DNA of 64,000 bases from positions 1 through 64,000 of IMG/VR virus record IMGVR_UViG_3300032213_001070. The stretch is one strand, 5' to 3'. The translations under genes were made by a program, and so were the position numbers. Positions within the stretch are counted from its first letter, which is position 1, and the number at the start of each line of letters is the position of its first letter. The notes under the pieces were generated by a model, which saw only the letters and a program-made list of their open reading frames with translations, was not told the origin of the DNA and did no database searches. The DNA is from a virus. Positions 29,001-54,071 of the stretch are shown here, one piece after another.

Positions 29001-29123
29001 TCTAGTGGTGGAACTACTGACAAAGCAGCTATGGCAAAACAAATGGGTTATGGAGCATATGGAGGTCAGTTAAAGAAAGGTGGATTTGTGTATGCCGATG
29101 TTATCTATCCATTTATACTATAA
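26064..29123 (+). CDS. Probable internal cargo protein with conserved crAss-type N-terminal domain
   Basis: 1019 aa; EAEGGET...GP.H.EGGVP..LP..SFIFSD motif; Q/N/A-rich coiled-coil C-terminus. Confidence 0.65.
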   Translation: MLRRVRIKKLPQAKTGYQVRGSLYNDVPSMGGGADYNAYIGEPHLKASKYITAVPREEANLEAEGGETVFGDINGDGMPEHKTIKGPRHSEGGVPLKLPDDSFIFSDTKSMKMKEPNFLAMFGKKTGSYTPAELAKQYDVERYRKILQDPNSDMLDKKTAELMLKNYTLKLGALALAQESKKGFPQGIPAVARPYMEAMGIKDEDVLPDQQITSTIKELDQQQKNNQRSAATMASPTEEQDEEYGDEAEEAQMMNSDRPVATPEPMEDEAAGMTPEEAEMQFGGMLSSDRAFAFQNGGWLPEEVAVFTGTVPYAEYGMAMGVNPQNYEGRKKHIHGATRFFQNGGNLPKAQGGIEVDITGMTPQQRDKALDEARTKNPGKEINVIENGKKKSAKYKKLKAQELTDIEGVDMKTFGNTPNSVAAAAQYKLLEKNLKDPKVMNKLYEETISSLKDKRSYVGKDGVQGKTWEERGNALPSPAEVRDQFLTHQKRNLSFRGQNIDPNLFTDTGAGLAPAAELIKRGAINPKTGKKITNEEEAKEAKEHMRQTYGGGRKGYTKDGEIIDVSIDEVSGKIGIPLEKDEKSRALQQATFHGYTHMAENKGNYDADTQYALKNFIPESLQAGVGDEISMGKGLFKNKGVQISPIDDFYKLDDEEYKSKAGNTTLGHLAGAGLEEYTFEDINEGPCECEDGSKPQRKEDGTCPCETKPKGEKPCPCEKSDGTKIDVGVNPNTGECNPCVEEQPVDIEQPAEWWLQDTIKTAGAFGDLMSIKKHMPWAPRVDLETPRPTFLDPTRELAANAEQANIQTQAAAQFAGPQALSARASSIQGTAAKNAADVLSKYNNANVNIANQFETQATNIRNQEQMMNQAGTQRLYDQNTVANQQFDNAKLAMRSNLRNQYTNAITNRAKTAALNDLYPQYAVSPATGGFNRFQNPKDFTGEKTSTTKTYDEWLKYYIDQGNTPEQASTNAKNAVNTQASSGGTTDKAAMAKQMGYGAYGGQLKKGGFVYADVIYPFIL

Positions 29124-32349: not shown

Positions 32350-35300
32350 ATGGCTGAAGAAACAAATATACCAGATGATGGAGTAAATGAGCTTTCACAA
32401 AAAAGTCCATTTATTGCACCAGCTTCTATAGGAATGACTGAATATAAACCTATTACTCCTCCAGTACTTGATATTCATGATCTTAACTTAAAATCTAATA
32501 TTGATAATCCAGCATTAAGAGTTAAAGATACTACTACCGGATCTGCACCATATCATCCAAAAAGAGTTGATTCAAGTGATGCTCCTAAGTTTGGAGGTCT
32601 TGATGGAATATTTGCAAAAACAAAAGCTCAGTTAGTACAGAATGTAGATAATAAAGTATACAATAAAATGTACGCTTATGACTCTTCACCAAAAGGAGCA
32701 CATAAAGCTAGGTATAAAGCATATGGTCAAGAGACATATGATAAGATTGGTTTCTCACCGGAGATAGATAATGAAACATGGTTTAATGCAAACACAACCA
32801 TGTATGATGATTGGAAGCGTATGGCTACCAATGCAGCATGGCCAATGATGAAACTTGGTTTTATTAGTCCTATAAAATCATATGGTAAACTTTTTGGTCA
32901 AGCTGATATAGGTCAGGACTTAGCAGAGGCTAGAGATTATGAAGAATACAATGCTATAGGTTATTCTACTAAAGGTGGTATAGGTGGATTTGCAATTAAC
33001 TTGCAGAATTCAGCAGCATACTCTGTGGGTATAATCACTGAGTCTGTAGTTGAAGGAGCTCTTATTGGAGCTGCTGTAGGTGCAGTAGCAGGAGAAGGAA
33101 TTGGAGCAGCCCCAGGAGCTGCACTTGGTGGTATATTTGAAGGTATATCAGCAATAGGAAGATTACCAAAGACTCTGTATCAAATGAGCAAGAATCTTGG
33201 TAAGATGACTATGAATCTTAAAAAGCTTCAGAATCTTTCAGAGGTTAAGAATGTATTTGCAAATGCAGGTAGAACTATGGGGAATTTTGTAAATCCTTTT
33301 ACAAATACCACAGAAGCTGCAATGAAATATGTATTTAAAAATCCTGATGATCTTACCAACTTAGCTAGAAGTGCAAGAACAGCTGGAGCTATGTGGCATG
33401 ATGTAAAGAATATAAATGCTGCATTATCTGAAGGAAGACTTGAAGGAGGATTTACAGAACAAAGAGTATATGATGATCTCTATAACAAATACTATGATAA
33501 GTACGGAGTAGCTCCTACAGATGAGTTACAAAAAGATATGCGTAAGCAAGCAAAAGTAGCTGGATTCCAAAACACTTGGAAGAACACATTGCTTGTAAAC
33601 TATAGTAATAAGATAGCTTTCCCGTCAATCACTAGAGCAGGTTTTATGAAAGGTCTTCCAACCTTCAGTAAAACATTCGGAACAGTAGGACCTTATCAGT
33701 TAATATATGACCCGGCTAAGAAAGTTGCAAAAGAAGCTTACCGTATTGAAAAGGTATCTTTAAAGAATGCTGCTAAGTCATTAGTTAAACCAGCTACATA
33801 TGGTAAAACTGCTCTTAATTACTTTAAGGCAAATCTAGTAGAAGGTTTTCAAGAGACTGCACAGGATGTATTGTCAAATGCAACAGAAGAGTATTACACA
33901 AACAGCTTTAAAAATAAAGACCGACAGAACTTTGATTACTCAATGGCTACTCTTGGTTCAGCATTAAAGAAACAAATCAGTGCTCAAGGTGCTGAAACAT
34001 TTGCTTCTGGATTTGCTATGGGTACCATACTTGGTATTCCCGGAGGAGTAAAAGAATATTTAAGTGTAGGATACAATAAGTATTTTAAGAACCGTGCTAA
34101 CTATGATCAGTATGTTGCTGAAAGAGAAGGTGAAGCACAAAGCATTGTTGATGCATTAAATACAATGGACAAGAATGCTAAACACTTCTTTGATCCTAGA
34201 CTTAATAATTATGTTAATCAGATGCTTGTAGGTAAAGTAGCTGATGACCCGGATAATGTTTCTGCTAAAGAAGCTAAAGATGCAAGCTTTGCAGGTTTTA
34301 AATCTGCTGTGAGAACTGCATTAAGAACCGGTACCTTTGATATGTTCATTGATAACTTTCAAGGATACAAACAAGCTAGCCCAGAAGACATTGAAGCAGC
34401 ATGGAGTCTAGAACCTGGACAAGGTACAAAAGCATTAGAGTATATTGATAGTGCAACAAAGACTGCAAAAGATATTGCTTCTAGATGGCAATTCTCTAAA
34501 AATAAATTTAAAGAAGTTGTTAATCCAAATCAGTTTGCTGAAGATACGCCAGAGAGACAAATGGCTGATATTTATAATGAAGCTTACTTGACTGGATTAG
34601 ACAATCTTGTATTTATGGGCTCAGCATTTGATAATAACTCTGAGAGATTGTCAAAGATGTATACCAAGCTTTCTTCTTTATCTGCTATACAAAATTCAAG
34701 ATTCTCAAACTTTGCAAACATTGTAGAGCCAGAAAAACTGCAGAAAGAGATTGCTATGCTCCGTACAGATGTAGAGTTAGGAAAAAATGCTACAACTCCA
34801 GAAGCAAAAGAACAGTATAAAAAACAAAAAGATTTATTAGAAAAACTAGAAAACTATCAATCACAACAGTTTGGAGCTACAGTACAGTTTCTTAAAAAAC
34901 TAAGAGATACTCAGAAGAGTATAATGGAATCTGAGGAAGGTATTTCTGCAAGTGAAGCTCAACAAAAAGCTTTAGATCAAGTTGTTGAAGAGTATGATGA
35001 ACAAGGATTAAATTCTTTTGAAGACTATAAAAATAGTTATAGAGAGTTACTAGACACTCTTGCTGGGTCAGAAGAAGACAAAGTAAAATTAAATAGAGAG
35101 TTAGATGATGCTGGAGGCTTTGATGAGTTTTTTCAAATGCTTATGGATTCATATCTACTTAGAAATGAAAATACTAACCTTAATAAGTTTATCAATCTAT
35201 TGAATGATCCAAAAGGTTTCTATGAGCATGTTCAGAGAAACTTTGACTGGATGAAAAAGCTGTATGATAACAGACAAGACTATTATACTGATGTTGTAAA

Positions 35301-38300
35301 TAATTCTATGTTGGCTATCCAGAGAAACAGTCTTTTGGAAGAGTTAGCTGAAAAAGGTATTTATGTAGACTTAGAAGAGTTTGCTGAATGGACAGAAGAT
35401 AATAACAACCTACCAACTTACTTTATTGATCAGGTAAATAACAGAATCATAAACCAAGATAGTTATTTGTATGATCAGTACATACAACTATTTGTTGATG
35501 CTTCTCAGATTGATAGTAAAAACCCACCGGTAAAGAAATCTGACAAAGATCAAAAGCTACAGAAGATAGTTGATGATTATAATGATCAAAGAGATGGTGA
35601 ACTTGAAACTGTTAAGAATACATATGACCGCACATTAAAAGAACTAGTTGGATATACTCAGGAAGAGATTGATGAGATGATCAGTCAAGCAACAGCAGAG
35701 TCTGAGATGTCAGAAGATGATGTTAAAGATGAAGTTAAGCTTATAGAAAAAGCATTAAAGCAACTTGATTCAAATAATGTAGTTGAGATACAAGCAGTGT
35801 TTGATATTGCTGTAGACAAAAATATGTTTACCGCACAAGAGTATAATCTTAAAAAAGAAGATATATTCAGTGATGATGCTTTACTAGAAGAAATGCAAGC
35901 TATTTCAGAAAGATTTACTGATGTAGATGAAGTAGAAGCACAAGATGCCGCAGCAAATGTAATGATCTTAAAACCATTACTTGAATCAAGACTTGAAGTA
36001 TTAAATACATATGATCAAACAAAAGGTCTAGAAGGTGTACCACAGTATGAAGACACAAAGCCATATGCTGACTATACTAAAGCTGTAGATGAGATAAACA
36101 AAAAGTATGACAATCTTATTGATGAGGCTGAAGGTAGATTAGCTGCAGAAACAAGAGCTGATGTAGAGGCTAAGAGACCAGAAGCAATGAAGAAAACTAT
36201 TAAGCAAATCAGAGACTTAATAGAAACCAAAGAAGATATAGTTCAGACTAAGAGAAACTATATTGTAGATGGTGAGCTTCATGATAGAATGTCTAATAGA
36301 ATCAAGACTGGATATGATACTTATGGATACACCGGTGAATCTGATTTAGTTGATGTATATGATAGTACTATTGGTGCTGCTTTAGAAGGTACTGCTGATA
36401 CTAAAGCTGATCTAGAAGCTCAGAAAGCTGATATAGAAAAACAGAAAGAAGTCTATAAAAAAATGACTAAAGGTACTCCCATTATTAAAGATAACATTAA
36501 AGGCACCAAGATAGGAGATAAATATGATGATAGATTAAAAGTGATAGTTATTGATGAAAGTTTAGCAGATAACTTTGATCCTAAAATTGCTGATGATAAT
36601 GGACAAGGTTATGAGGTTATAAGTAAAATTAAAGAATATGGTGAGATGGAAAATGGTGTTCAGACAAAAGCACCAAAAGTTGAAATTATAATTTTTAACA
36701 ATAAAGAAGATGCAAACGCCTTTTTTGAAGCAAGAAAAATTAAATTAGATAAAAATATAGCTGATGCAGAACTAGCTGCTTTAGAACAACCAACTCCTCC
36801 GGGAGTTCTTACTCAAAATGTCATTGATGCCTTTATAAAAGAACTAGTTGATGCAGACCTACCAGGAGTAAACACTAATAAGTTTACTGTAGATATAGTA
36901 AGAGATGAGTTAGAAACTTTAATAGCTCCTGAAGGAACTAGGCTGACTAAGAAAACTCAAAAACAAATTGATAGCTTAAACTCTCAATTAGCTGATGTTG
37001 AATCTAAGTTAGCTTCAGTAAAAGACAAGAAGAGATTAGCTACTCTTGAGAAGCAAAAGAAAAGACTTGAAGAAGTTATTAAGGATGAAGAGACTGGTAA
37101 ATACCGGGAGCCTTTTGAAATGACAAATGATAACATTAAATCATTTGTACTCAACACAGTAAAAGAAAATGCATTTGAAGAATCAAGAGATGCCGGAAAT
37201 ATTCTAGATCCTATGCTTAAAAACTTCTTAGATACTGAAACATCTAAGAAACCTGCATATGATCCTAAGCTTATGAGTAAGGAAGCATATGATAACTTAT
37301 TTGATGATGAGACAGGCTACTTAACTAAGTTTAAAAAGATGGCAGATGCTGGTGAAATATATATTTTCACTAAGAATCTTTATGTACATTCTAACAATCT
37401 AGTAGATGAGAATGGTAAAAAGTTACCTCCAGTTGCTGGTGAGATTGATATGATTATAGTAGACCGCAAAGGTAGAGCTTTCATAGCAGACTTAAAGACC
37501 GGTAAAGTAGCTAAGTGGCTTAACTATAAAACAAGAGGTACTAAGTCATTTGAAAAACAAATAGAGAATACTATGCAACAAACCGGTTACTCTAACTTGT
37601 TAGAGAACATGGGTACTACTGTTGATGGTATAATGATATTCCCGCTTGAGATTGGCTTTGATAGCAAAGGTTTTATCAAATCTGCTAATGCTCCTACTAA
37701 TCCGTCATTGTTTGCTGGAGAAGAAGTTATTGGAGATGAAGGTACACTACCTTACACAATCCAATTAGACAAAGGAAACAACACACAGATCAAGAATGAA
37801 GAGACTGGGCAATATGAGAATATATCTATTGATCAGTTTATGCAGAGATTGATTCCTGTAAAAGGTAAGAAGACTACACAAATAAAAACTAAACCGGCAC
37901 CAACAGATGTAATTCCTGAAGAAGAAAGAGCACTTGCTGATGAGTTCATGCTTAAGATGGCTAATGCTAAAGAGTTTGATGACCTTACAGAAGTAGCATT
38001 GGAGCTTGATGAAATGAAACCTAACTTAAGCAAAGAAACATATAACATGCTTAAGTATCAGTTGGATACTAGAATGTCAATGGATCTAAATATCCCTAAT
38101 GATATTATTCTAAATACCGATGAAATTTATATCTTTACACAGCCGGTAAAAGCCCTTAAAATAACTGAAGGATATAGAGTTAAAATTGATATGTTAGATC
38201 CTGAAACTCAAAAAGTTATAATATCAAGAGTAGGTCCCGGAAGAACAAGAAGTATTGAAATGAGTATTAAAGATTTTACAGAAAATACCATGACAGAAGA

Positions 38301-38502
38301 ACAATTAAATAACCTTCCAAAAGAAGAACCTACATATCAACCTTCTCAAGAAGAGATAGATATGTTAAATGAAAGTCTTGAAAATACAAATGAAGGTTTA
38401 TCTGAGTTTGAACAACTTGCAAAGTTAGAGGCGGATGCATATGCAGAAGGTGTAACACTTGATTCTTTAGAAAACAATTTCCTTAATAATATTAAATGTT
38501 AA
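32350..38502 (+). CDS. Giant ejection protein with hydrophobic N-terminal segment and PD-(D/E)xK nuclease domain
   Basis: 2050 aa; Gly/Ala hydrophobic stretch at ~32977-33159; GEIDMIIVD...FIADLKTG...QQTGYSNLLE at ~37435-37610; ends in Cys. Confidence 0.7.
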   Translation: MAEETNIPDDGVNELSQKSPFIAPASIGMTEYKPITPPVLDIHDLNLKSNIDNPALRVKDTTTGSAPYHPKRVDSSDAPKFGGLDGIFAKTKAQLVQNVDNKVYNKMYAYDSSPKGAHKARYKAYGQETYDKIGFSPEIDNETWFNANTTMYDDWKRMATNAAWPMMKLGFISPIKSYGKLFGQADIGQDLAEARDYEEYNAIGYSTKGGIGGFAINLQNSAAYSVGIITESVVEGALIGAAVGAVAGEGIGAAPGAALGGIFEGISAIGRLPKTLYQMSKNLGKMTMNLKKLQNLSEVKNVFANAGRTMGNFVNPFTNTTEAAMKYVFKNPDDLTNLARSARTAGAMWHDVKNINAALSEGRLEGGFTEQRVYDDLYNKYYDKYGVAPTDELQKDMRKQAKVAGFQNTWKNTLLVNYSNKIAFPSITRAGFMKGLPTFSKTFGTVGPYQLIYDPAKKVAKEAYRIEKVSLKNAAKSLVKPATYGKTALNYFKANLVEGFQETAQDVLSNATEEYYTNSFKNKDRQNFDYSMATLGSALKKQISAQGAETFASGFAMGTILGIPGGVKEYLSVGYNKYFKNRANYDQYVAEREGEAQSIVDALNTMDKNAKHFFDPRLNNYVNQMLVGKVADDPDNVSAKEAKDASFAGFKSAVRTALRTGTFDMFIDNFQGYKQASPEDIEAAWSLEPGQGTKALEYIDSATKTAKDIASRWQFSKNKFKEVVNPNQFAEDTPERQMADIYNEAYLTGLDNLVFMGSAFDNNSERLSKMYTKLSSLSAIQNSRFSNFANIVEPEKLQKEIAMLRTDVELGKNATTPEAKEQYKKQKDLLEKLENYQSQQFGATVQFLKKLRDTQKSIMESEEGISASEAQQKALDQVVEEYDEQGLNSFEDYKNSYRELLDTLAGSEEDKVKLNRELDDAGGFDEFFQMLMDSYLLRNENTNLNKFINLLNDPKGFYEHVQRNFDWMKKLYDNRQDYYTDVVNNSMLAIQRNSLLEELAEKGIYVDLEEFAEWTEDNNNLPTYFIDQVNNRIINQDSYLYDQYIQLFVDASQIDSKNPPVKKSDKDQKLQKIVDDYNDQRDGELETVKNTYDRTLKELVGYTQEEIDEMISQATAESEMSEDDVKDEVKLIEKALKQLDSNNVVEIQAVFDIAVDKNMFTAQEYNLKKEDIFSDDALLEEMQAISERFTDVDEVEAQDAAANVMILKPLLESRLEVLNTYDQTKGLEGVPQYEDTKPYADYTKAVDEINKKYDNLIDEAEGRLAAETRADVEAKRPEAMKKTIKQIRDLIETKEDIVQTKRNYIVDGELHDRMSNRIKTGYDTYGYTGESDLVDVYDSTIGAALEGTADTKADLEAQKADIEKQKEVYKKMTKGTPIIKDNIKGTKIGDKYDDRLKVIVIDESLADNFDPKIADDNGQGYEVISKIKEYGEMENGVQTKAPKVEIIIFNNKEDANAFFEARKIKLDKNIADAELAALEQPTPPGVLTQNVIDAFIKELVDADLPGVNTNKFTVDIVRDELETLIAPEGTRLTKKTQKQIDSLNSQLADVESKLASVKDKKRLATLEKQKKRLEEVIKDEETGKYREPFEMTNDNIKSFVLNTVKENAFEESRDAGNILDPMLKNFLDTETSKKPAYDPKLMSKEAYDNLFDDETGYLTKFKKMADAGEIYIFTKNLYVHSNNLVDENGKKLPPVAGEIDMIIVDRKGRAFIADLKTGKVAKWLNYKTRGTKSFEKQIENTMQQTGYSNLLENMGTTVDGIMIFPLEIGFDSKGFIKSANAPTNPSLFAGEEVIGDEGTLPYTIQLDKGNNTQIKNEETGQYENISIDQFMQRLIPVKGKKTTQIKTKPAPTDVIPEEERALADEFMLKMANAKEFDDLTEVALELDEMKPNLSKETYNMLKYQLDTRMSMDLNIPNDIILNTDEIYIFTQPVKALKITEGYRVKIDMLDPETQKVIISRVGPGRTRSIEMSIKDFTENTMTEEQLNNLPKEEPTYQPSQEEIDMLNESLENTNEGLSEFEQLAKLEADAYAEGVTLDSLENNFLNNIKC

Positions 38503-38506
38503 TTAG

Positions 38507-47500: not shown

Positions 47501-49720
47501 AAAGGAATGGATGAGCTAGAAATGGCATTTAGTCCGGATACTGGATTACTTGATACTACATTACAAGTTAAAAAAAGAGATCAAGCTTTGAAATTATTCT
47601 CAGAAGGTTCTAAGATTGATAAAGATTTCTTAAATAGATTAAGATATGATTCCATTCTATCATCATTCTACAAGAGTGATATGATAATGGATTTAGTAAC
47701 ACCATTATTCTCATTAAGATTGAATGACCAAATATCAAACTTTATTGAGAAGAAGATTAATCTAAACAAAGATATCATAGCTCAAAAGTATGGCCCAGGA
47801 ATTAAAGGTCAAGAGAGATTTATTAACATGTACAATAATGCAGTAGTAAATTACATCTTCCAAAACACTATGTCTAATTATCCTGATGAGTCTGGACAAC
47901 CAGTTCTTATTCCAGATACAATACATACCTTTCCTGTTACTCAAGTAGAAAAAGGTCCTGCGGTTATATTAAATGAAAAAGGCTTTAGAGTAAATTTTAA
48001 AAAAGCTCAGGAAGATTATAAAAACAAAATCTTCTTAACTACTAACAATACAGATGAGAGCTATGCTAAAACTGGTCAGGATGCATTTACTCCACGGGAG
48101 AATCCTTTCCCAACATTCTCAAGCTACTTAAAGTTCATTACAGAAAAAGAATATTTAAGCAGTATATACCCTGATCAGACTGATGTCTTTTTAACTCAGA
48201 CAGCACTTATGAATAACTTTAACCGTGCTTTTATTATGGGTACAACAAAGTATTCATATACTAATATGGTTATGGATATCATTAGTGAGTTTGAAGATCA
48301 AAACATAAAAGAAAACTATCCGGTATTAGCTCAGCTAGCACCAGCTAAGTTTGTTAAAGATGTAAATGTTATTGAGTTAAATGATAAGGCAACAGCCAAA
48401 GGAGTTATTGCAGAAGATTATTATAAGAATCTAAAACAATTAGCGGATCCAACAGTAAGAAAAGTTACCTATACAGATAAGACTAAACAAAAACAAGATA
48501 ACCAAAGAATAACTGATGTATTCAAGGACTTCTCACTGCTTATGTTTTATCAACATGGTACAGGATATTCTAGATTAGGTTTTGGAAAAGTATTAGATCC
48601 AGAATCTTTTGTAAAAAAAATGCAGTATGCTTCTAATGCTTTCTTGAATAACAATCTATCAGAAGAAACATTTGAAAGAATCTATAACAGATTCATTACT
48701 AAGTCACAGTTTAAAGATTATACTATTGACCCAAGTAATCCAGATGCTTTTGAATCTTCAGAAGATATACTAAGTGAATTCTCTGAAGAAGACTTGATAG
48801 AAATGGGATTACTACAACCAGGACAAAAACCTACTCAACCATCTACTAGTATTAAACCTTCTGATTTTACTAATCATTCTGGTGGTGCATATGGAGGGGA
48901 TACTTTCTGGGATATTATTGGTAGAGAATTTGGAGTTACTAATCATAAACACTATAAAGATGCGGGTAATCCTAATTTATCTCAAAAATTAAGAAATGCA
49001 GGTGTTAAAGCTACAATTCTTACTAAAGAACAGATGGATACTGCAAGAATTGAGGTGGAAAAATTACTTGGAGAAAAATATCCTGATACTTTACAAGGAA
49101 ACTTACAAGTAAGAAATTATTATCAAGTAGCTAATGCAGATGCTGTATTTGCTGTTGCTGAAATAGATTCTGGTACAAAGCCTGGAGTTTTTGGTGGAAC
49201 AAATACTGCTGTTCAATTAGGTATAAAACTAGGTAAACCTGTATATGTATTTGATTTAGATACCAAGAAATGGTATACACAAGATACAGAGTATCTTGAA
49301 ACTGGTTATGATAAAACTAAACATGAATGGAATTACAATGGTTGGATAGAAATACCTACACCTACTCTTACTAAAAACTTTGCTGGTGTAGGATCAAGAG
49401 ATATTGAATCTTATAATGTACAAAAGGATGGTAAATGGGTGCCAAGAGATAAATACAAAGGTAAAGAAACTGAAGAAGCTGCTAAACAAGCTATTAGAGA
49501 TGTATATACTAATACATTTGCAACTCCTACCACTCAACCTACAGCTATTCAGACTGCTGCAGCAACACCGTTAGATAAAATAAATGAATTTTATAACAGT
49601 CTTACTCAGGAACAAAAAGATAAATTAGGTAACTTAGATGACTTGATTGCTGAGTATAATGATGTTCCGTTTGACTATCCGGTAGAAGATTATATTGAAA
49701 GTATTAAATGTAAGTTATAA
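38507..49720 (+). CDS. Virion DNA-dependent RNA polymerase polyprotein (crAss-type) with zincin and SLOG-like domains
   Basis: 3737 aa; catalytic GSDFDVDK (DFDVD at 46079-46093), PRIP, ESDG; HEAFH...ELLAEDF zincin motif at 41108; C-terminal SGGA.G.D...GGT..AV...AG.GSR domain. Confidence 0.85.
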   Translation: MITCPITRQPLEDFYKYVYRAINDKLKDNKTFDVNQFMEDLFKKSSEKSDPETAAKWLQSTPRVINLIVTKSFSDKIPLVKGLDGIYGLMTDFSKPDGEGLKNVLAKYVKKQDVKDLKPVIAHQLSLEFSTEEDEPEGEDIPKNSPSVTARLKSTIPFSGTLPSFTPVDPKQKSDTYIEKLDKPRAQILTNLTRLANAFNSTDPFSDFVYQNKKIRIKAVNLYAFSQQNFNDLDPTTQEEIRLSGVMVAIGNAQANVTQADKRVLLVVTDDSGQNLYFDEEGNITNKGNGKLLYQFMRDVRNTAKGYVVTDIYGNEEQLMPISEYVAKNYNSEIDGDLNTFTEKVKDQREKELKRLFELREKALGSEVMLEFEGLTEGVSSEVTATRLPLSDFLKIPGSTKANLKTIRTLKKAEGKFFKGYAVINLNGTEFQVRRSSMPDSVADQIAAVMFDPNIPFETKKDFYSQFIPEDSDTKLAYTMRKHEIIPDMEKKSFRIKLYDQVGEKEGFMTKPTHDFKISEASLKKASEESLANGRKLLSDIFKTGRSNGKATYMSYKSDLLNSEDYLVYDTQTKQIDVANYINFLSGLDGYVMLVDGDPGFYNKTLLFNEPTELSKDLKEQPEEEEDWFDQQIREAREFAEKQKALENASKTPVEIEFDFIIDRALSPEYKAQLEQQGVKAKSNNYYYAASLIQSINTDRRYSREVAEQLRDMLSGYIGALSDAQIKTINSAINAAFPQLSTPVQNAVDIIQKTIEPEMPDPTTGIIEPGSNLTQDEQDTLDEFGLFRAGYIADEIGAKDLKNVLNWWNKTKIGKELQKHIKLEHAYNLANSDVFAKFVVSGATLTNPDIKAQIQINPNKGTLVDIYHEAFHAFTQLYLTRQEKYNLYDEVKNYTDANGKEPYKNFSYKDIDELLAEDFRTYMKTNYIKKGSPVRNRLFRKILNFIRALFGKKPINPTEVVTETMNVPAVRELFENLNYSSNKKSFVRKYQANISNVDWFELDRGISKLNRPTDTALSTQDSQLISDSMDMIISDIVDDYYKARLKTGKVTKSGTIGLLLDPEKRHGTYKIIEKRLQKKLDEFKTKLHSQPGIAPFSEIKNLEDIQENAVAVLKSAKGEDKYVFLKSQIDGFDNLNPEIKKGTRIKGESWRGIKIVGDFYSHKSIKKDKTPVSILVVSSLEDARQQFENYVAGGAKEYTDFEEKDVPDYMLSAEQELLLDNVRILQAALDNYGDPEWELKGIPPTGTIAFHLQNSDFELSKTKYELDKSLLNEENEEEDDQEKDQSRDSETPFGGEASNKKSLLQLASKEVIYILKSLSKVNREGEVSYNRLGFKERADFRKVWNIVTKTIGGLRDRVDAYDKLMEEAKNFSEIAQLIETKLPDPKAISSIFEQGVSNSFWQTFAKPSVKYWQFTVFPQYESVTNELTGESENIITSYESEVTQSSIEVDSTVRKFEALFKSSLANDYIEKNSANQSQLKLANLVKGFEDKSNPGQLDKNRSFEFAAALGIKLDDLPVIRKSLETKSDYYGLPYIYDIAKDFLAIQSAEKKIGQQEEFLNKFISNPIGTLRGEIPKGVLKTFKKEVTEKNILKRLAELQSQYGYDSANPGVLLPDGNRVFENVNHSEVTVTVDALNRVTKLSDLWESDEFGYMDHLKPGKSFFTLRSKVFGALFDMSKNTSEENLFDKKSNRSLELIQTAGTQIADVEGVNTSDLDKAGKFMQEFHTFLLNGVAEFIRHAEKKSAFGIRQVGGKQKVIVNGITNGVDQSLYIDMNKFIKPGETQLSPGEIVAVGGYFLDYIAVEFDRIRYFKQNPNVLETIKGYNREIKDEQGNVIARAGELFTVFDNILRDKTKKDLYKLTSDPALDLPTYVRNNQELFLKIQTDITDYFNEKLESLTKEYVDNLNFMDEKLYEKAGILEKDRKGGLATEPLVKAYLYNSWIHKFEMFNIFNGDASQFNHDKQEVQKRAPGSTSDGDAFLNDKYMHKFINSVLNNKTYAKALAKELGRDDLDKFVSNGKLNTGVIADAERKSVYLDEMLGAWEEKYRKDLTPIIKNKTELEKAISKKLAKDAKAYKEMKESDGAAFVTFDAYRILKIQGNSWAPAQEELYQKIIAGEEVDPLKVKEFFSIYKLHYYGAIANSPIAATAMHKFAVAPIIPSLATKGTQLYNLHVKMLENNLQYVTFGSGSKVSTLTTTGSFDNIFADANQKAVSMDAPIKTNQIHIEYLKDVTKVATKLKKEISYPTQKRVLLLDGLFNVGEAINKTSGEIASNYKAAVDNYTEVLTLDLLNKIGYEFDKNTGSYVGKLDKFIELIRDELGAKEVPDHLIKLLDTTLAGNLTMDFSIHPEADTLEKVIVNRIQKSVITQKTKGESMVQAPSTFYNGVWDTAFERDEAIKKNDELIKKFLGSNVLPFYRTGFDEKGNRIATQAMKVAIPFNGDFLNLLNLKHPDGEPIGNRDRLNDLIKNDAWLNENKDLITIAGPRIPTDAANTMEFAEVWHFIDPAQGNTVIVPTEIVAKAGSDFDVDKIYFMMPNINSKGELVKAPAESMEDLKALVDKSNKASKKERKEKGLMNPQALIDQYKKAAQNKLIESTKAILSLPDNYASLTKPNNTYLVEDEVEFYDTYARGYNNKLNAHQEGVRMNGKDEVMSPSRIFDEDYNLSVHESNLSGSLPLGIMAKKNKVHSLFKSIGALMPKSYRATVWNDETKRYDELEAEYDVVINMKHNKTRNAKGQEVVSLSNENNVDGEKIGDIFSHGLQGLLDRAKNPFPFKLQIVKEALSTINHLIEAGVSVPETFAFVNNPWIVKYIEYQMRFGGSTSKFMSIPILKHQVKAAAMKQTIDDMISAGGTSMKKFISELVNIANQKRLADTVTMLKKQEKSKKYNYMLEGIDVPFTATVEDMVFKKGFQLNKIALLKEVDPTKGFDKQKVVFSKSKSITNNDNFYYAAQAAWQKTFGNTYANESELKSLVRGGLSPTPQNLAILLHMLQLEKQFKGMDELEMAFSPDTGLLDTTLQVKKRDQALKLFSEGSKIDKDFLNRLRYDSILSSFYKSDMIMDLVTPLFSLRLNDQISNFIEKKINLNKDIIAQKYGPGIKGQERFINMYNNAVVNYIFQNTMSNYPDESGQPVLIPDTIHTFPVTQVEKGPAVILNEKGFRVNFKKAQEDYKNKIFLTTNNTDESYAKTGQDAFTPRENPFPTFSSYLKFITEKEYLSSIYPDQTDVFLTQTALMNNFNRAFIMGTTKYSYTNMVMDIISEFEDQNIKENYPVLAQLAPAKFVKDVNVIELNDKATAKGVIAEDYYKNLKQLADPTVRKVTYTDKTKQKQDNQRITDVFKDFSLLMFYQHGTGYSRLGFGKVLDPESFVKKMQYASNAFLNNNLSEETFERIYNRFITKSQFKDYTIDPSNPDAFESSEDILSEFSEEDLIEMGLLQPGQKPTQPSTSIKPSDFTNHSGGAYGGDTFWDIIGREFGVTNHKHYKDAGNPNLSQKLRNAGVKATILTKEQMDTARIEVEKLLGEKYPDTLQGNLQVRNYYQVANADAVFAVAEIDSGTKPGVFGGTNTAVQLGIKLGKPVYVFDLDTKKWYTQDTEYLETGYDKTKHEWNYNGWIEIPTPTLTKNFAGVGSRDIESYNVQKDGKWVPRDKYKGKETEEAAKQAIRDVYTNTFATPTTQPTAIQTAAATPLDKINEFYNSLTQEQKDKLGNLDDLIAEYNDVPFDYPVEDYIESIKCKL

Positions 49721-50646
49721 TGAGTTGTATTAATAAGGCAGATAAAGCATATAAAGCTCTCCAAAATGTTTATGGAGATGCACTGGCAGAAGCTTTTGTA
49801 CGGGCTCATCCTTTTAATAAAGGTAAGTCTGAAGATATAAACTTTGATATACCTAGTAAAAAGGAAGTTAAAGATTGGCTTACTGAACAAAAACAAAACA
49901 TACCAAAGAATATTAAGAGAGCCTTAGAACTTAACCCATATCTTTCTGAGACTGCACTTAAAAGCATGCTTAAAGGTGTTGTTAGTACATTTAAAGACAG
50001 AATGTTTATAACTACAGGTTGGTTGTTTTCCGGATCCAGTGCATTAGGTCAAGAGGTATTTGAAACTATCTATAAGCCTAACATGGCTGTTATGAATAAT
50101 CTAGCAGACAACTACCCGGATATCTTCAGATTAATCCCTACTAAGAATGCATATACAACTATGGTTGAAATAACACCAAGAGTTAAAGCAGAAGAAGAGG
50201 CAGAAGAAGGTGAGGTTCTAGAAGATGATGAACTTAAAACAGATGAGCCTGCAATAGTTGAAAGCATAAGAACATACAGGTCAATTGTAGATAATAACAA
50301 TGGCCGTAAACCTATAGAGTTTATGGCTGGTGACTTAAAGTGGCAGTTAAACAATAAAGGTTTATACAATCTTGTAGATAAGTTTACTAATGCTGTATAT
50401 GTTAGAAATATAAATTTAGAAACTGGTGAAATGATTCCTGAAGTATTACCAGAGACCCCGGTAGATGAAGCAAAAAGAGATAGAATCTTTAGATCAGTTA
50501 TGCAAATGATTAAAGAACAAAAACTAGATGAGTATCTTGCTGTAAAAGGTATTGACACTGCAGATATATATGAAGCTTTAAGAGATGCTGAAACTGATAA
50601 TGATTTGAATAAAGTTATAGAAACAATATTAAAAGCAGTATGTTAA
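49720..50646 (+). CDS. Small ejection/adaptor protein with N- and C-terminal Cys
   Basis: 308 aa; overlaps both neighbours; begins MSC and ends AVC. Confidence 0.65.
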   Translation: MSCINKADKAYKALQNVYGDALAEAFVRAHPFNKGKSEDINFDIPSKKEVKDWLTEQKQNIPKNIKRALELNPYLSETALKSMLKGVVSTFKDRMFITTGWLFSGSSALGQEVFETIYKPNMAVMNNLADNYPDIFRLIPTKNAYTTMVEITPRVKAEEEAEEGEVLEDDELKTDEPAIVESIRTYRSIVDNNNGRKPIEFMAGDLKWQLNNKGLYNLVDKFTNAVYVRNINLETGEMIPEVLPETPVDEAKRDRIFRSVMQMIKEQKLDEYLAVKGIDTADIYEALRDAETDNDLNKVIETILKAVC

Positions 50647-53600
50647 GTTGTCCTAGAAAAAATAGTAGAGAGTGGCAAGCTATTCTTGCAGAAACTCACG
50701 GTAATGAGGAAGAGGCTCAAAGACTATGGGTTGAAAGAGAGTTTGATACTAATCCTGATCTTAATGAAGTAGTTAAAGATGAGAACTATGAGGATGAAAG
50801 ACAAGGTGAACCAGGGCAGGAAGAGCTAGAACCTAATGATGATTTTTCTAGATTAATACAGAGAATCAAGATATATATCAATAGACAGATTGAGATTCTT
50901 AACAGTAAGAAAATTGCTAATAAAAAGTATAAGCAATCTAAACTTAAAAAACTTCTTACTGAGATGGAGGCATTAGAAGGTGTAGCATCTATAAATATAT
51001 TTGTAAAAGATGCTTATGATAAATCTCTACAGGTAAGAGCTAGAATGAATAAGCTACTTGCTAATAAAGGTAAGATGTCTTCTAAAGAGGTAATGATTGA
51101 GCTTACCGGATTAAATGATTTTGCAAATAGCTACTCTATATTAGATGAGATTGACTCAGCTGATATTTTAAATTACTTTACCACAGCTTCAGAACAAGAA
51201 ATGATGGGTCCAATAACTCCACAAAAAATGTTAACGGATGCTATTTCAATAAGACAAAAGGTAAAAGAAAAAGTAATTACTCAGGGTATACCTTTATTAG
51301 CAGAGTTCTTAGTAGAATACAAATCTACTTTACAAGATACTACTATTGCAGATACTGTTGCTGCTCTTGAAAAAGAAATAGAAGATATACAGAATAATGC
51401 TAAGATGCCAGATGAGAAAAAAGAAAAGCTCATCAAAGAAAAACAAGATAGGATTAAAACATTTGAGACATTTGATGTTGACCAAGCTTCTATTGAAAAG
51501 ATACTTAAAGAAGCATCAAGTGATATTGGTGTGCTTGATTTCTTAATCTCCCCTCTTATTACATCTTCTGACAGTGCATTAGCATTATTTGCTAAAGCAA
51601 TCAAGAGCCAGTTAGAATTTGCTAGACAAAAAGATATTAAAGTCAGAGACAGTTTGGTAAAAGCTTTTGAAAAATATAGAGCTGTTGCCCCGGCAAGTTC
51701 TGATAATACTGCAAAGTTTAATGAAGGTATCTATGAGGAAGTAGATATACCTATCTATGATGAAAAGGATGAGATATCCGGCTATAGAAAAGAAGTTCAG
51801 TTTGTACAGAAGTATGACATGAGTAAATTTAATAAAGCCAGAAGTGAGTTCTTTAAACAACTTGGTGCTTTACCAAAACCTGTAGGAGAAAAACCTACTA
51901 AAGAAGAGAAAGCCAAAAGCAAAGCTTGGTGGGAGGCTAGAAATAAATGGTATAAAGAAAATACTCAACCTAGACCAAAAGCAGAAAGAGATGCTATAAT
52001 TCTTCAGATGCAGACTGATAGAGACAATAAACTCATTAGTCAAGAAGATTATGAAAAATGGGAAAGAAAAAACATTAGAGAATACAAAGGTGAAGTGACT
52101 TACTTTGAAGATTTAGCTGTACCTGCAGATAAATATAAAAGTGATAAATGGAATGCCATGTATGATTCTAATGATGTTGCAAAGAATGAGAAAGGTAGAT
52201 ATCATGCTGAGTTACTTAGAATATATCAAGAAGCTCAGGATAAATTACCAGAATCACAACAACCAGGATTCAGAGTACCATCTGTATCTAAGTCTGACTT
52301 AGAAAGATTAATGCAGAACGGTATCAAAGATTTAATAAAAACTAATGTTAGTGAAGCAGTTAGACTTCAGTCATGGGATACAGAGTTTGCATTAGGAACT
52401 TTATCAGAAGAAGATGCTAAGTTCTTACCGGTATACTATAATCAACCCATAGATGCAAAAGATGTAACATTAGATTTAGCTTCTTCAGTATTGTTATTTA
52501 GTGCAATGGCAAATAAATATGAGGCACTTAACAATGTAAATGCTGAGATATCTTTAATGAAAACTATTGTTGGTGCCCGCAGTGTACCTGTTACAAATAG
52601 TAAAGGACAAGCTGTACTAGATGCTTTTGCTAACAAGCTAGGTTATGAGGAGTACATCCGGCAGAATGGAGAATCTTATTCTAAAAAACACTTGAATGCA
52701 TTTATAGATATGGTTATCTATGGTGAAATGCAAAAAGCTGAAGAAATCTTTGGTGGTTTATCACTTACTAAGATTACTAATACTGCTATGTCTTATTCAG
52801 CTATCACAACTATTGCTGCTGACTTGCTTAAAGGTGTAGCTAATAACCTACAGGGAAACATTCAAGTACTTATAGAAGCGGTAGGTGGTCAGTTCTTTAA
52901 CCGCGCCAACTTAAGAAGAGGTAAATCTTTTCTAGCAAAAAATCTACCTAGTATATTAGGAGACTTTGGTAAACCTGCACCAACAAGTTTAGTTGGAAAA
53001 CTAGTAGAGAAGTATGATCCTATGCAAGGTAACTTCAAAGATAACTATGGTAAAAAGATAAGTATGGGTGTAGCTAATAAACTTTTCCGTACAGATACAT
53101 TATTCTTTAACCAGCACTTTGGGGAATATGAGATTCAAGTATCTACTATGTTAGCTTTATTTGATAATATCAAAGTACTAGATACTCAAACTAATGAAGA
53201 GATAACTTTACTACAAGCCTATAATATCTATGGTGCTGATGAAGCACAAAGCAAAATAAAAATTGCTAAAATGGATAGCAAAGGTCAACCGGTTACAGAT
53301 GACCAAGGTAATCAGGTATATGTACCATTTGGAGAAACCCAGAGACAAGATATACAAAATAGACTACATGGATTAAACAAATACATGCATGGTGTCTATA
53401 ATGACTTTGACAAAGGCACATTACAAAAGTATTCATTAGGTAGACTAGCAATCATGTGGAGAAAGCATGTTGTTCCTGGATATAAAAGAAGATTTAAAAG
53501 AGTATCCATGGACCATGAAATTGGGACACCAACAGAAGGATACTATAGAACTTTTATTATGACAATGAGATCAGATCTTAAACAGTATAAATATAATATT

Positions 53601-54071
53601 ATTAAGAACTGGTCAACTTATACACCATTTCAAAAAGCTCAGATTTCAAAAGTACTTACTGAGATAAGTATAATCTTAGCACTAACAACATTAGGGTTTG
53701 TATTAACTAGATTGCTGGTTAATCCTGATGATGATGAAAGAGATCCAATCCAAAATAACTATGCTTATAACTTTTTACTTTATGAGACATTAAGGATGAG
53801 ATCTGAGACTGCATCTTATATTAATCCTATAGATGCTATCCGTGTAATGAGATCACCATCAGCTATGACAAGTACTATAGATAGACTTATTAAGTTTGTC
53901 AATCAAGTATTACCTTGGAATATAACTGAAGAATATAAAAGAGAATCAGGTGTGTGGAATAAAGGAGATAATAAAGCTTGGGCTGCATTTGTAAAACTAA
54001 TGGGTATCTCAGGTTATAATATGGATCCTGAACAAGCATACAAATCATTTGAGGCAAGTTTCTTTAAATAA
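50640..54071 (+). CDS. Large ejection protein with C-terminal hydrophobic helix
   Basis: 1143 aa; begins MLSCPRKNSREW; ISIILALTTLGFVLTRLLV segment near the C-terminus. Confidence 0.65.
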   Translation: MLSCPRKNSREWQAILAETHGNEEEAQRLWVEREFDTNPDLNEVVKDENYEDERQGEPGQEELEPNDDFSRLIQRIKIYINRQIEILNSKKIANKKYKQSKLKKLLTEMEALEGVASINIFVKDAYDKSLQVRARMNKLLANKGKMSSKEVMIELTGLNDFANSYSILDEIDSADILNYFTTASEQEMMGPITPQKMLTDAISIRQKVKEKVITQGIPLLAEFLVEYKSTLQDTTIADTVAALEKEIEDIQNNAKMPDEKKEKLIKEKQDRIKTFETFDVDQASIEKILKEASSDIGVLDFLISPLITSSDSALALFAKAIKSQLEFARQKDIKVRDSLVKAFEKYRAVAPASSDNTAKFNEGIYEEVDIPIYDEKDEISGYRKEVQFVQKYDMSKFNKARSEFFKQLGALPKPVGEKPTKEEKAKSKAWWEARNKWYKENTQPRPKAERDAIILQMQTDRDNKLISQEDYEKWERKNIREYKGEVTYFEDLAVPADKYKSDKWNAMYDSNDVAKNEKGRYHAELLRIYQEAQDKLPESQQPGFRVPSVSKSDLERLMQNGIKDLIKTNVSEAVRLQSWDTEFALGTLSEEDAKFLPVYYNQPIDAKDVTLDLASSVLLFSAMANKYEALNNVNAEISLMKTIVGARSVPVTNSKGQAVLDAFANKLGYEEYIRQNGESYSKKHLNAFIDMVIYGEMQKAEEIFGGLSLTKITNTAMSYSAITTIAADLLKGVANNLQGNIQVLIEAVGGQFFNRANLRRGKSFLAKNLPSILGDFGKPAPTSLVGKLVEKYDPMQGNFKDNYGKKISMGVANKLFRTDTLFFNQHFGEYEIQVSTMLALFDNIKVLDTQTNEEITLLQAYNIYGADEAQSKIKIAKMDSKGQPVTDDQGNQVYVPFGETQRQDIQNRLHGLNKYMHGVYNDFDKGTLQKYSLGRLAIMWRKHVVPGYKRRFKRVSMDHEIGTPTEGYYRTFIMTMRSDLKQYKYNIIKNWSTYTPFQKAQISKVLTEISIILALTTLGFVLTRLLVNPDDDERDPIQNNYAYNFLLYETLRMRSETASYINPIDAIRVMRSPSAMTSTIDRLIKFVNQVLPWNITEEYKRESGVWNKGDNKAWAAFVKLMGISGYNMDPEQAYKSFEASFFK

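What the first reader, a model, noticed from the sequence alone, without database searches (positions are those of the whole stretch)
32350..54071. Gene-order head-to-tail cysteine chain linking the four last ejection proteins, including the virion RNAP
Seen: a manual scan of the 2050, 3737, 308 and 1143-aa proteins (7238 aa) finds only six Cys, all within 4 residues of a terminus and paired across the three gene junctions. The pairs are ...NNIKC* (38497) with MITC (38516), ...SIKCKL* (49709) with MSC (49726), and ...LKAVC* (50641) with MLSC (50649). The first protein has no N-terminal Cys and the last has no C-terminal Cys, as expected for the free ends of a linear chain. Two C-termini share IKC after an acidic amphipathic helix. 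Known: crAss-like phages package giant proteins including a vRNAP and are thought to eject them, unfolded, through a narrow tail. Inference: terminal docking helices locked by disulfides (or a metal bridge) join separately translated proteins into one redox-cleavable train of roughly 0.8 MDa. It would be pulled out in gene order and released in the reducing host cytoplasm. I know of no description of this system but cannot check the literature.
Basis: partly seen in the sequence, partly recalled or inferred. Interest (0 to 1): 0.92.

Follow-up and report, generated by a model that had tools for sequence, protein, structure and literature searches.

The report
Cysteine-tipped chain of crAss cargo proteins
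Four giant proteins of this crAss-like phage, including the RNA polymerase it carries in its particle, have no cysteine except one at each end that faces the next protein. Relatives keep this rule wherever the genes are split and drop it where they are fused, which points to untested end-to-end disulfide links.

Summary
The four proteins (2050, 3737, 308 and 1143 aa; 821 kDa) hold six Cys in 7238 residues. All six lie within 4 residues of the six termini that face each other; the two outer ends have none (chance about 5e-15).

The rule holds across Crassvirales.
- 104 of 105 protein junctions in 77 IMG/VR loci carry both Cys.
- Interior Cys is 0.005-0.016 %, against 0.96 % in other genes of the same contigs.
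- A new Cys pair appears where a gene is split (L007, L025, L049).
- One-piece fusions of 4-5.4 kaa lack the pair, and most have no Cys at all.
- P0018 has no Cys and reads gp47-gp50-gp49, the order the Cys topology implies.
- phi14:2, crAss001, DAC15, p-crAssphage-like and Suoliviridae genomes obey the rule, even where gp47 lies on the opposite strand from gp50.

The most likely reading is inter-protein disulfides that stitch the separately made pieces into one linear thread. No bond was shown here: the complex predictor was unavailable and no virion data exist.

A solved analogue exists. In cyanopodophage A4, gp27 Cys1715 bonds gp26 Cys5 (PMC12002296). I found no sequence or fold homology to it.

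This scan has reported the same pattern on at least eight other genomes. I rate it a new variant of a known kind.

The parts
32350..38502 (+). First chain member, 2050 aa (231 kDa), gp47-like. Its only Cys is the last residue (...NNIKC*); it has no N-terminal Cys.
   Evidence: hhalign of its family (A7) against crAss001 gp47 gives probability 97.3 %, E 2e-11, over a nuclease-like GE[IV]D...D[LV]KT region. 118 of 120 homologues end in Cys; interior Cys is 0.008 %.
38497..38518 (+). Junction 1: Cys codon 38497-38499, stop, 4-nt spacer, then ATG ATT ACT TGT (MITC, Cys codon 38516-38518).
   Evidence: The junction is conserved as ...FKC* / MISCPITQ in L009-L015.
38507..49720 (+). Virion RNA polymerase, 3737 aa (424 kDa), gp50-like. 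Its only Cys are at residues 4 and 3735.
   Evidence: 111 of 120 homologues carry a Cys at both ends; interior Cys is 0.005 %.
46079..46093 (+). Catalytic DFDVD motif of the two-barrel vRNAP (residues 2525-2529, context GSDFDVDKIY).
   Evidence: The context matches crAss001 gp50 (GSDFDVDKLY) and phi14:2 vRNAP, PDB 6VR4 (GSDFDIDKMY).
49709..49728 (+). Junction 2: ...SIKCKL* (Cys codon 49709-49711). The stop overlaps the ATG of MSC by 1 nt (Cys codon 49726-49728).
   Evidence: The last ~50 aa form a conserved module, FYNxLTxxQKxxLGNL...YIESLKCKL.
49720..50646 (+). 308-aa double-ended linker piece (35 kDa). Its only Cys are at residue 3 and at the last residue, 308.
   Evidence: C3 and C308 are invariant in 11 homologues. 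Its C-terminal half is fused to the vRNAP in L019- and L026-type relatives, which then lack the junction-2 Cys.
50641..50651 (+). Junction 3: ...LKAVC* (Cys codon 50641-50643) overlaps MLSC (Cys codon 50649-50651). The two genes overlap by 7 nt.
   Evidence: The junction is conserved in all loci.
50640..54071 (+). Last chain member, 1143 aa (131 kDa), homologue of crAss001 gp49 and phi14:2 gp076. Its only Cys is at residue 4; the C-terminus is free.
   Evidence: tblastn to crAss001 gp49 gives 3e-48; phmmer gives 3e-57. The family has 2578 clusters. The AF2 model has pLDDT 83. Residues 1-35 form a small helical hairpin, followed by a disordered acidic leash at 36-65.
53664..53720 (+). Hydrophobic helix ISIILALTTLGFVLTRLLV (residues 1009-1027) followed by the conserved NPDDD.
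   Evidence: D1031 is invariant and D1032 nearly so in 42 diverse homologues. It lies within AF2 helix 996-1027. A membrane role is inference only.

Best explanation
The four genes encode the virion-packaged RNA-polymerase module of a crAss-like phage: a gp47-like protein, the vRNAP (gp50-like), a 308-aa linker piece and a gp49-like protein. As ejected proteins they are purged of cysteine. The only Cys left mark the break points of what other crassviruses make as one 4-5.4 kaa polypeptide.

Most likely, the C-terminal tail of each piece docks on the N-terminal module of the next. Inside the particle the two facing thiols then form a disulfide. The pieces become one nearly linear thread of about 0.82 MDa, in the N-to-C order of the fused form. 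Because each link is end to end, the thread could still pass a narrow channel unfolded.

The link would fix 1:1:1:1 stoichiometry and order during packaging and ejection. It should open in the reducing cytoplasm.

Shown: the Cys pattern, its conservation, its gain on gene splitting and its absence in fusions, and the identity of the proteins. Inferred: the S-S bond itself, the docking, and the train-like ejection and reductive release.
For: (1) Window: six Cys in 7238 aa, all at the six facing termini. Chance is about 5e-15.

(2) Junction rule: 104 of 105 junctions in 77 IMG/VR loci have both a C-terminal and an N-terminal Cys. The last protein has an N-terminal Cys in 77/77 loci and a C-terminal Cys in 0/77. 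Interior Cys is 0.010 %, against 0.96 % in other ORFs of the same contigs.

(3) Wide samples: gp47-like proteins have a C-terminal Cys in 118/120 and an N-terminal Cys in 1/120. vRNAPs have both in 111/120. Among gp49-like representatives (50 %-identity clusters), 115/150 have a Cys at residues 2-8, it is the sole Cys in 91, and none has one in the last 8 residues.

(4) Splits: where the vRNAP is split, a new pair appears at the new ends...LKECY* / MSC[IV]NPN (L007, L025, L049).

(5) Fusions: 17 giants of 3953-5388 aa lack the N-terminal Cys. They hold 12 Cys in 81,693 residues, and 12 of them have none. P0018 (4520 aa, no Cys) contains gp47-like, gp50-like and gp49-like segments in exactly the order implied by the Cys topology.

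(6) Partial fusions keep only the Cys at the breaks that remain. Intestiviridae have a zincin protein ending ...C beside a fused gp50-gp49 starting MSC. Suoliviridae have a fused gp47-gp50 with no N-terminal Cys and a C-terminal Cys, beside MICPN....

(7) The pattern is not a DNA signal. In crAss001, DAC15 and IAS virus gp47 lies on the other strand from gp50-gp49, yet gp47 ends in Cys and gp50 starts with Cys.

(8) Precedent: cryo-EM of cyanopodophage A4 shows the C-terminal helix of gp27 in a cleft of gp26, locked by a Cys1715-Cys5 disulfide. These are the sole Cys of those two proteins.

(9) Disulfides do exist in crAss001 virions, between tail hub and ring proteins.
Against: - No bond was observed. 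There are no virion data for this phage, and the complex predictor was unavailable, so cognate docking is untested.
- Assembly happens in a reducing cytoplasm, and gut crassviruses live without oxygen. Oxidation would have to occur after packaging or release.
- Two thiols could equally hold a metal ion.
- Exceptions exist. In L084 the upstream Cys lies 27 residues from the end. P0113 and P0086 look full length and have no Cys, and their partners could not be fetched.
- No homology to the A4 pair was found by sequence or by fold search, so A4 is an analogue only.
- Where the linker piece is fused to the vRNAP, the junction region is replaced rather than read through. A simple 'S-S replaces the peptide bond' picture is therefore not shown for that junction.
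Confidence: 0.68

Rival explanations
1. The facing Cys pairs hold a shared metal ion (Zn, Fe or Cu) rather than forming a disulfide. The chain is then metal-bridged and released by loss of the metal.
For: Parity and junction pairing fit a bridge of any chemistry. A neighbouring cargo protein (26064-29123) has a metal-knot-like cluster of 8 Cys, so metals probably occur among the cargo.
Against: Each junction offers only two thiols. No conserved His, Asp or further Cys lies beside them in the terminal profiles. The one solved analogue is a disulfide.
Confidence: 0.08
2. The terminal Cys bond to something other than the neighbouring piece. Candidates are another copy of the same protein, the protein's own other end (cyclisation), or a capsid, portal or other cargo protein.
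For: Nothing here measures which thiol meets which. Exterior virion proteins of this phage are Cys-rich.
Against: Homotypic or third-party bonding needs no co-occurrence, yet 104/105 junctions have both Cys. The outer ends never have one: 1/120 first N-termini, and 0/77 and 0/150 last C-termini. Under cyclisation, fusing gp50 to gp49 should remove the N-terminal Cys of gp50. It is kept, together with the C-terminal Cys of gp47. One-piece fusions lose all terminal Cys.
Confidence: 0.07
3. There is no covalent link. The Cys are kept for a non-bonding reason, such as packing in a docking interface, N-terminal processing or a packaging signal. Alternatively they are tolerated only at disordered ends, where they cannot hinder unfolding.
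For: Cys purging of ejected proteins is known without any terminal Cys (N4 gp50, DEV gp71-73). Ends are the least harmful place for a stray Cys.
Against: Tolerance predicts scattered, unpaired terminal Cys. It does not predict near-invariant pairs at every break, none at the outer ends, and gain on splitting. C4 is one of only 8 invariant columns in 42 sequences of 24-50 % identity. A nucleotide-level signal is excluded by the non-adjacent gp47 and gp50 genes.
Confidence: 0.12

Closest known systems
Cyanopodophage A4 (Anabaena phage A-4L) pre-ejectosome pair gp27-gp26: Cys1715-Cys5 disulfide seen by cryo-EM (PNAS 2025, PMC12002296; gp26 = PDB 9K3A chain A)
   Same: Two consecutive genes encode large ejection proteins. 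The upstream one (1717 aa) has its sole Cys 3 residues from the C-terminus. The downstream one (1114 aa) has its sole Cys at residue 5 (MSKHC). The C-terminal helix docks in the partner and the two Cys form a disulfide inside the capsid.
   Different: It has one junction, not a chain of three to four. There is no vRNAP. It was described as a stabilising detail of a pentameric ring, not as a rule linked to gene splitting and fusion. No homology to the crass proteins was found by HMMER. The fold searches did not list it, which is inconclusive.
RNA-polymerase cargo module of cultured crassviruses: crAss001 gp47-gp50-gp49 (Bayfield et al. 2023, PMC10172136) and phi14:2 gp078-gp077-gp076 (vRNAP = PDB 6VR4)
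   Same: The proteins are homologous. They show the same terminal-Cys topology. In phi14:2, gp078 has Cys 1797/1797 only, gp077 has Cys 3 and 2179/2180 only, and gp076 has Cys 3 only. In crAss001, gp47 has Cys 2339/2341, gp50 has Cys 5 and 2404/2412 plus one interior Cys, and gp49 has Cys 5. They are reported as packaged cargo thought to be ejected partly unfolded.
   Different: The papers read here do not mention these cysteines. The present phage has four pieces, with an extra 308-aa linker protein, and a much longer vRNAP (3737 aa).
Cysteine-free ejection proteins of Schitoviridae (N4 gp50-52, DEV gp71-73; PMC11445570)
   Same: They are giant virion RNAPs and companion ejection proteins with strong suppression of Cys. 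This was explained by the need to pass the envelope unfolded and unbonded.
   Different: There Cys is absent altogether and the vRNAP is one polypeptide. Here Cys is absent except for paired terminal residues at protein breaks.
One-piece crass RNAP giants (for example P0018, 4520 aa; P0043, 5388 aa)
   Same: They hold the same domains in the same N-to-C order, gp47-like then gp50-like then gp49-like.
   Different: They are a single polypeptide with no Cys at all. The peptide backbone does what the Cys pairs are proposed to do in split forms.

Membership tests
Crassvirales virion RNA-polymerase cargo module (crAss001 gp47/gp50/gp49) | gp49-like protein | tested here: met
   tblastn of the 1143-aa protein hits crAss001 gp49 at 3e-48, and 82 Crassvirales records in all. 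phmmer gives 3e-57.
Crassvirales virion RNA-polymerase cargo module (crAss001 gp47/gp50/gp49) | Giant two-barrel RNAP with the DFDxD catalytic motif | tested here: met
   GSDFDVDKIY at residue 2525. The context matches crAss001 gp50 and phi14:2 vRNAP 6VR4. Pairwise phmmer to gp50 gave no hit, so homology rests on the motif, on position and on bridging giants.
Crassvirales virion RNA-polymerase cargo module (crAss001 gp47/gp50/gp49) | gp47-like RNAP-associated protein | tested here: met
   hhalign of A7 against crAss001 gp47: probability 97.3 %, E 2e-11, 148 columns. Only one domain aligns.
Crassvirales virion RNA-polymerase cargo module (crAss001 gp47/gp50/gp49) | Proteins are packaged in the virion and ejected | not testable with these tools
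   Known by mass spectrometry for crAss001 and phi14:2 (record annotation). No virion data exist for this phage.
A4-type head-to-tail disulfide between ejection proteins | Sole Cys at the C-terminus of the upstream protein and at the N-terminus of the downstream protein, in consecutive genes | tested here: met
   for the window. for A-4L: gp27 Cys 1715/1717, gp26 Cys 5.
A4-type head-to-tail disulfide between ejection proteins | Homology to A4 gp27 or gp26 | tested here: inconclusive
   There was no HMMER match. Foldseek and VIA-align on the 1143-aa model did not list 9K3A. For a 1143-residue helical model this is not decisive.
A4-type head-to-tail disulfide between ejection proteins | An actual S-S bond in the particle | not testable with these tools
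Cys-free ejection proteins (Schitoviridae type) | Complete absence of Cys | tested here: not met
   Interior Cys is zero, but six terminal Cys are present and conserved.
Split inteins / protein trans-splicing | Intein N- and C-fragments flanking the break | tested here: not met
   No Pfam family of any kind was found on the four proteins. The Cys lie 0-3 residues from the very ends, leaving no room for intein fragments.

The most novel reading that the evidence does not exclude
Crassviruses follow a general 'split-and-stitch' rule. The ejected RNA-polymerase module is always one linear thread, either a single 4-5.4 kaa polypeptide or up to five pieces tied end to end by disulfides. It is threaded through the tail as one molecule. 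Reduction in the host cytoplasm is the switch that frees and activates the polymerase. Cyanopodophage A4 would then be a convergent case of the same principle.
Probability: 0.4. Interest if true: 0.85.

Novelty: new variant of a known kind. Interest (0 to 1): 0.78.

Why it matters
How crassviruses move about 0.7-0.9 MDa of protein, including their RNA polymerase, through a narrow tail and in the right order and amounts is an open question raised by the crAss001 structure. A chain stitched only at the ends would explain three things. It would give equal stoichiometry. It would give ordered exit without hindering unfolding. It would provide a built-in redox release.

The idea can be tested at once on cultured phages (phi14:2, crAss001, DAC15) with non-reducing gels and disulfide-mapping mass spectrometry.

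It also gives annotators a simple rule for finding the true starts, ends and partners of these huge, otherwise featureless genes. Finally, it shows that gene fission in a virus can be compensated by two point changes.

Tried and rejected
- PHROGs and Pfam gave nothing for the four proteins.
- megablast to phage records found nothing.
- phmmer of the vRNAP against the PDB found nothing.
The neighbours of the Cys-free giants, and of the possible exceptions P0113 and P0086, therefore could not be fetched.
- Scans for P0018 and P0113 in viral and metagenome contigs found no relative.
- An HMM of the 308-aa linker found no counterpart in the N-terminal extensions of 1400-aa gp49 forms. 'Linker = split-off head of gp49' is not supported.
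- Aligning fused vRNAP-linker forms showed that the junction region is replaced, not read through.
- A jackhmmer run timed out.
- Fold searches of the 1143-aa model gave only generic helical bundles and did not list A4 gp26.
- A nucleotide-level junction signal was rejected, because gp47 and gp50 are not adjacent in crAss001, DAC15 or IAS virus.
- Split inteins were rejected (the Cys lie at the extreme ends).
- The sequencing-run search found one full holder, which may be the source sample. It also found small shares in freshwater, lake and sediment runs.
- Literature searches for a description of terminal Cys in crass cargo found none. The library lacks most subscription journals.
Full report
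OBSERVATION

The window is the first 64 kb of an 84,214-bp single-contig phage genome. Four consecutive plus-strand ORFs lie at 32350-38502, 38507-49720, 49720-50646 and 50640-54071. They encode proteins of 2050, 3737, 308 and 1143 aa, together 821 kDa.

A script count finds six Cys in 7238 residues:
- residue 2050 of 2050;
- residues 4 and 3735 of 3737;
- residues 3 and 308 of 308;
- residue 4 of 1143.

The N-terminus of the first protein and the C-terminus of the last have no Cys. The chance that six Cys all fall within four residues of a terminus is 4.5e-15. Other genes in the window hold 0.5-7.7 % Cys.

WHAT THE PROTEINS ARE

Pfam and PHROGs are silent on all four.
- The 1143-aa protein is a homologue of crAss001 gp49, annotated 'putative RNA-polymerase subunit'. 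tblastn gives 3e-48 and phmmer 3e-57, and 82 Crassvirales records are hit.
- The 3737-aa protein carries GSDFDVDKIY at residue 2525. This is the catalytic motif, in the same context as crAss001 gp50 and the crystallised phi14:2 vRNAP, PDB 6VR4.
- The family of the 2050-aa protein aligns to crAss001 gp47 over a nuclease-like domain (hhalign probability 97.3 %, E 2e-11).

The block is therefore the virion RNA-polymerase cargo module of a crAss-like phage, here cut into four pieces.

CONSERVATION

Close relatives (63-80 % identity, L001-L015) keep every terminal Cys, although protein lengths vary by hundreds of residues.

A profile search with the 1143-aa family finds 2578 clusters. Of the best 150 representatives (clusters at 50 % identity), the breakdown is as follows:
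- 115 have a Cys at residues 2-8, and in 91 of these it is the only Cys of the protein;
- none has a Cys in the last 8 residues;
- of the 35 without an N-terminal Cys, 17 are giants of 3953-5388 aa, 14 are fragments, and 4 are Cys-free proteins of unclear status.

Homologues of the 2050-aa protein end in Cys in 118 of 120 cases and start with Cys in 1 of 120. Their interior holds 22 Cys in 279,565 residues. vRNAP homologues carry Cys at both ends in 111 of 120 cases, with 24 interior Cys in 479,341 residues. This holds even though many carry added AlkB, NADAR, helicase or RNase H domains.

In 77 IMG/VR loci, 104 of 105 protein junctions have both a C-terminal and an N-terminal Cys. Interior Cys is 0.010 %, against 0.96 % in 371 other ORFs of the same contigs.

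SPLITS AND FUSIONS

The number of pieces varies between lineages, and the Cys follow the breaks.
- Where the vRNAP is split (L007, L025, L049), the new ends read ...LKECY* and MSC[IV]NPN....
- Where the linker piece is fused to the vRNAP (L019, L026 and others), that junction has no Cys.
- In Intestiviridae (p-crAssphage-like ZA, crAss002, cr107_1, cr3_1, cr110_1, Rudgehvirus), gp50 and gp49 are fused. Only the gp47-like C-terminus (...SFSCM...SFVCS...INFRC) and the giant's N-terminus (MSC, MAC) keep their Cys.
- In Suoliviridae (cr4_1, cr118_1), gp47 and gp50 are fused. The giant has no N-terminal Cys and has a Cys four residues from its end. The next protein begins MICPN.
- One-piece giants lack terminal Cys, and 12 of 17 have no Cys at all.
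- P0018 (4520 aa, no Cys) contains gp47-like, gp50-like and gp49-like segments in that order. This is the order the Cys topology implies for the split forms.

NOT A DNA-LEVEL FEATURE

In crAss001, DAC15 and IAS virus the gp47 gene lies on the opposite strand from gp50-gp49. Even so, gp47 has its Cys at the C-terminus, gp50 at both ends and gp49 at the N-terminus.

phi14:2 is the cleanest case:
- gp078 has Cys 1797/1797 only;
- gp077 (the vRNAP) has Cys 3 and 2179/2180 only;
- gp076 has Cys 3 only.

The constraint therefore acts on the proteins. 'Gene order' is incidental; what is conserved is the order of the fused polyprotein.

MECHANISM

Several features argue that the two Cys of a junction meet each other:
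- strict pairing at every break;
- none at the outer ends;
- loss of both on fusion;
- retention of just the remaining junction in partial fusions.

They argue against self-pairing, cyclisation or bonding to a third protein. A disulfide is the simplest bond between two lone thiols. The terminal profiles show no conserved His or further Cys that would complete a metal site, and Lys or Arg often sits next to the C-terminal Cys.

A link at the very ends leaves the assembly nearly linear, so it would not obstruct passage as an unfolded chain. Interior disulfides would. This explains why the interior is purged while the tips are kept.

The AF2 model of the last protein (pLDDT 83) shows a 35-residue N-terminal helical hairpin on a disordered acidic leash. 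The last ~50 residues of the vRNAP form a conserved module. Both are compatible with docking elements, but docking was not modelled because the complex predictor was unavailable.

WHAT IS KNOWN

Cys suppression in ejected proteins is described for N4 gp50 and for the DEV/Schitoviridae ejection operon, where Cys is simply absent.

crAss001 virions contain structural disulfides in the tail. The cargo section of that paper does not use the word cysteine. The phi14:2 vRNAP preprint does not mention cysteine or disulfide.

Earlier notes of this scan pointed me to cyanopodophage A4, which I checked. [quoted passage not shown] In the A-4L genome these are the only Cys of the two proteins (1717 and 1114 aa), and the genes are consecutive. 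This is a solved example of exactly the proposed link. I found no homology between the A4 pair and the crass proteins by sequence. The fold searches did not list 9K3A, which is inconclusive for so large a helical model. I treat A4 as an analogue.

EXCEPTIONS AND LIMITS

- In L084 the upstream Cys lies 27 residues from the end, and the interior has more Cys.
- L075 is a fused ORF that keeps one Cys at the old boundary.
- P0113 and P0086 look full length and have no Cys.
- Gut crassviruses tolerate a few interior Cys, about 0.02-0.3 % by my count. Aquatic relatives hold about 0.005-0.016 %.
- No experiment shows the bond, when it forms, or what happens on ejection.

VERDICT

The same pattern has been reported by this scan on at least eight other genomes. 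Against the literature I could search, the multi-junction rule and its tracking of gene fission and fusion in Crassvirales appear undescribed. I class it as a new variant of a known kind.

Noticed in passing
P0271-P0390 (vRNAP homologues); window 38507-49720: Many vRNAP giants carry extra enzyme domains by precomputed Pfam. These are AlkB-like dioxygenase (PF13532), NADAR/YbiA (PF08719), PF25176, PF18760, RecD-like helicase (PF13604, PF13245, PF13538) and RNase H (PF00075). They look like effector cargo fused to the ejected polymerase, and they stay Cys-free.
   Followed up: no
window 26064-29123 (residues 687-739): An otherwise Cys-free 1019-aa cargo protein holds 8 Cys in 53 residues as CxC, CxC, CxC and CxxC (PCECEDG...TCPCET...PCPCEK...ECNPC). 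This looks like a small metal-binding knot. crAss001 gp45 and DAC15 gp59 also have small Cys pairs.
   Followed up: partly
window 53664-53735: The last chain protein has a hydrophobic helix (ISIILALTTLGFVLTRLLV) followed by a conserved NPDDD, with D1031 invariant in 42 homologues. It may be a membrane-active element of the gp49 family.
   Followed up: partly
L100 (uncultured phage cr4_1, NC_055893) 6364-33412: Late genes show many in-frame stops under table 11: 38 in the 4491-aa giant and 30 in gp23. This indicates stop-codon recoding in this Suoliviridae genome. The terminal-Cys rule still holds.
   Followed up: no
L075 1-5130 (IMGVR_UViG_3300047095_001310): A fused ORF keeps a single Cys (...AQLSCYKG...) at about the point where the gp49-like domain begins. 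It may be a recent fusion that has not yet lost the junction Cys.
   Followed up: partly
L016, L018, L091-L101 versus L001-L090: Gut crassviruses have more interior Cys in the chain proteins than aquatic relatives. IAS virus has up to 9 in gp56, and Intestiviridae giants have 3-7. Aquatic relatives usually have none. This may reflect weaker selection against stray disulfides in an anoxic habitat.
   Followed up: no
L001-L090, ORFs outside the chain: Other ORFs of these contigs have a Cys in the first 8 residues in 13 % of cases (49/371). Their 0.96 % Cys content predicts about 7 %. Some other virion proteins may also have N-terminal Cys.
   Followed up: no
L018 21006-22285 (CrAssphage ZA) and L097 20615-20890: p-crAssphage-like genomes encode one or two thioredoxin-like proteins near the RNAP block. 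Whether they act on the terminal Cys is unknown.
   Followed up: no
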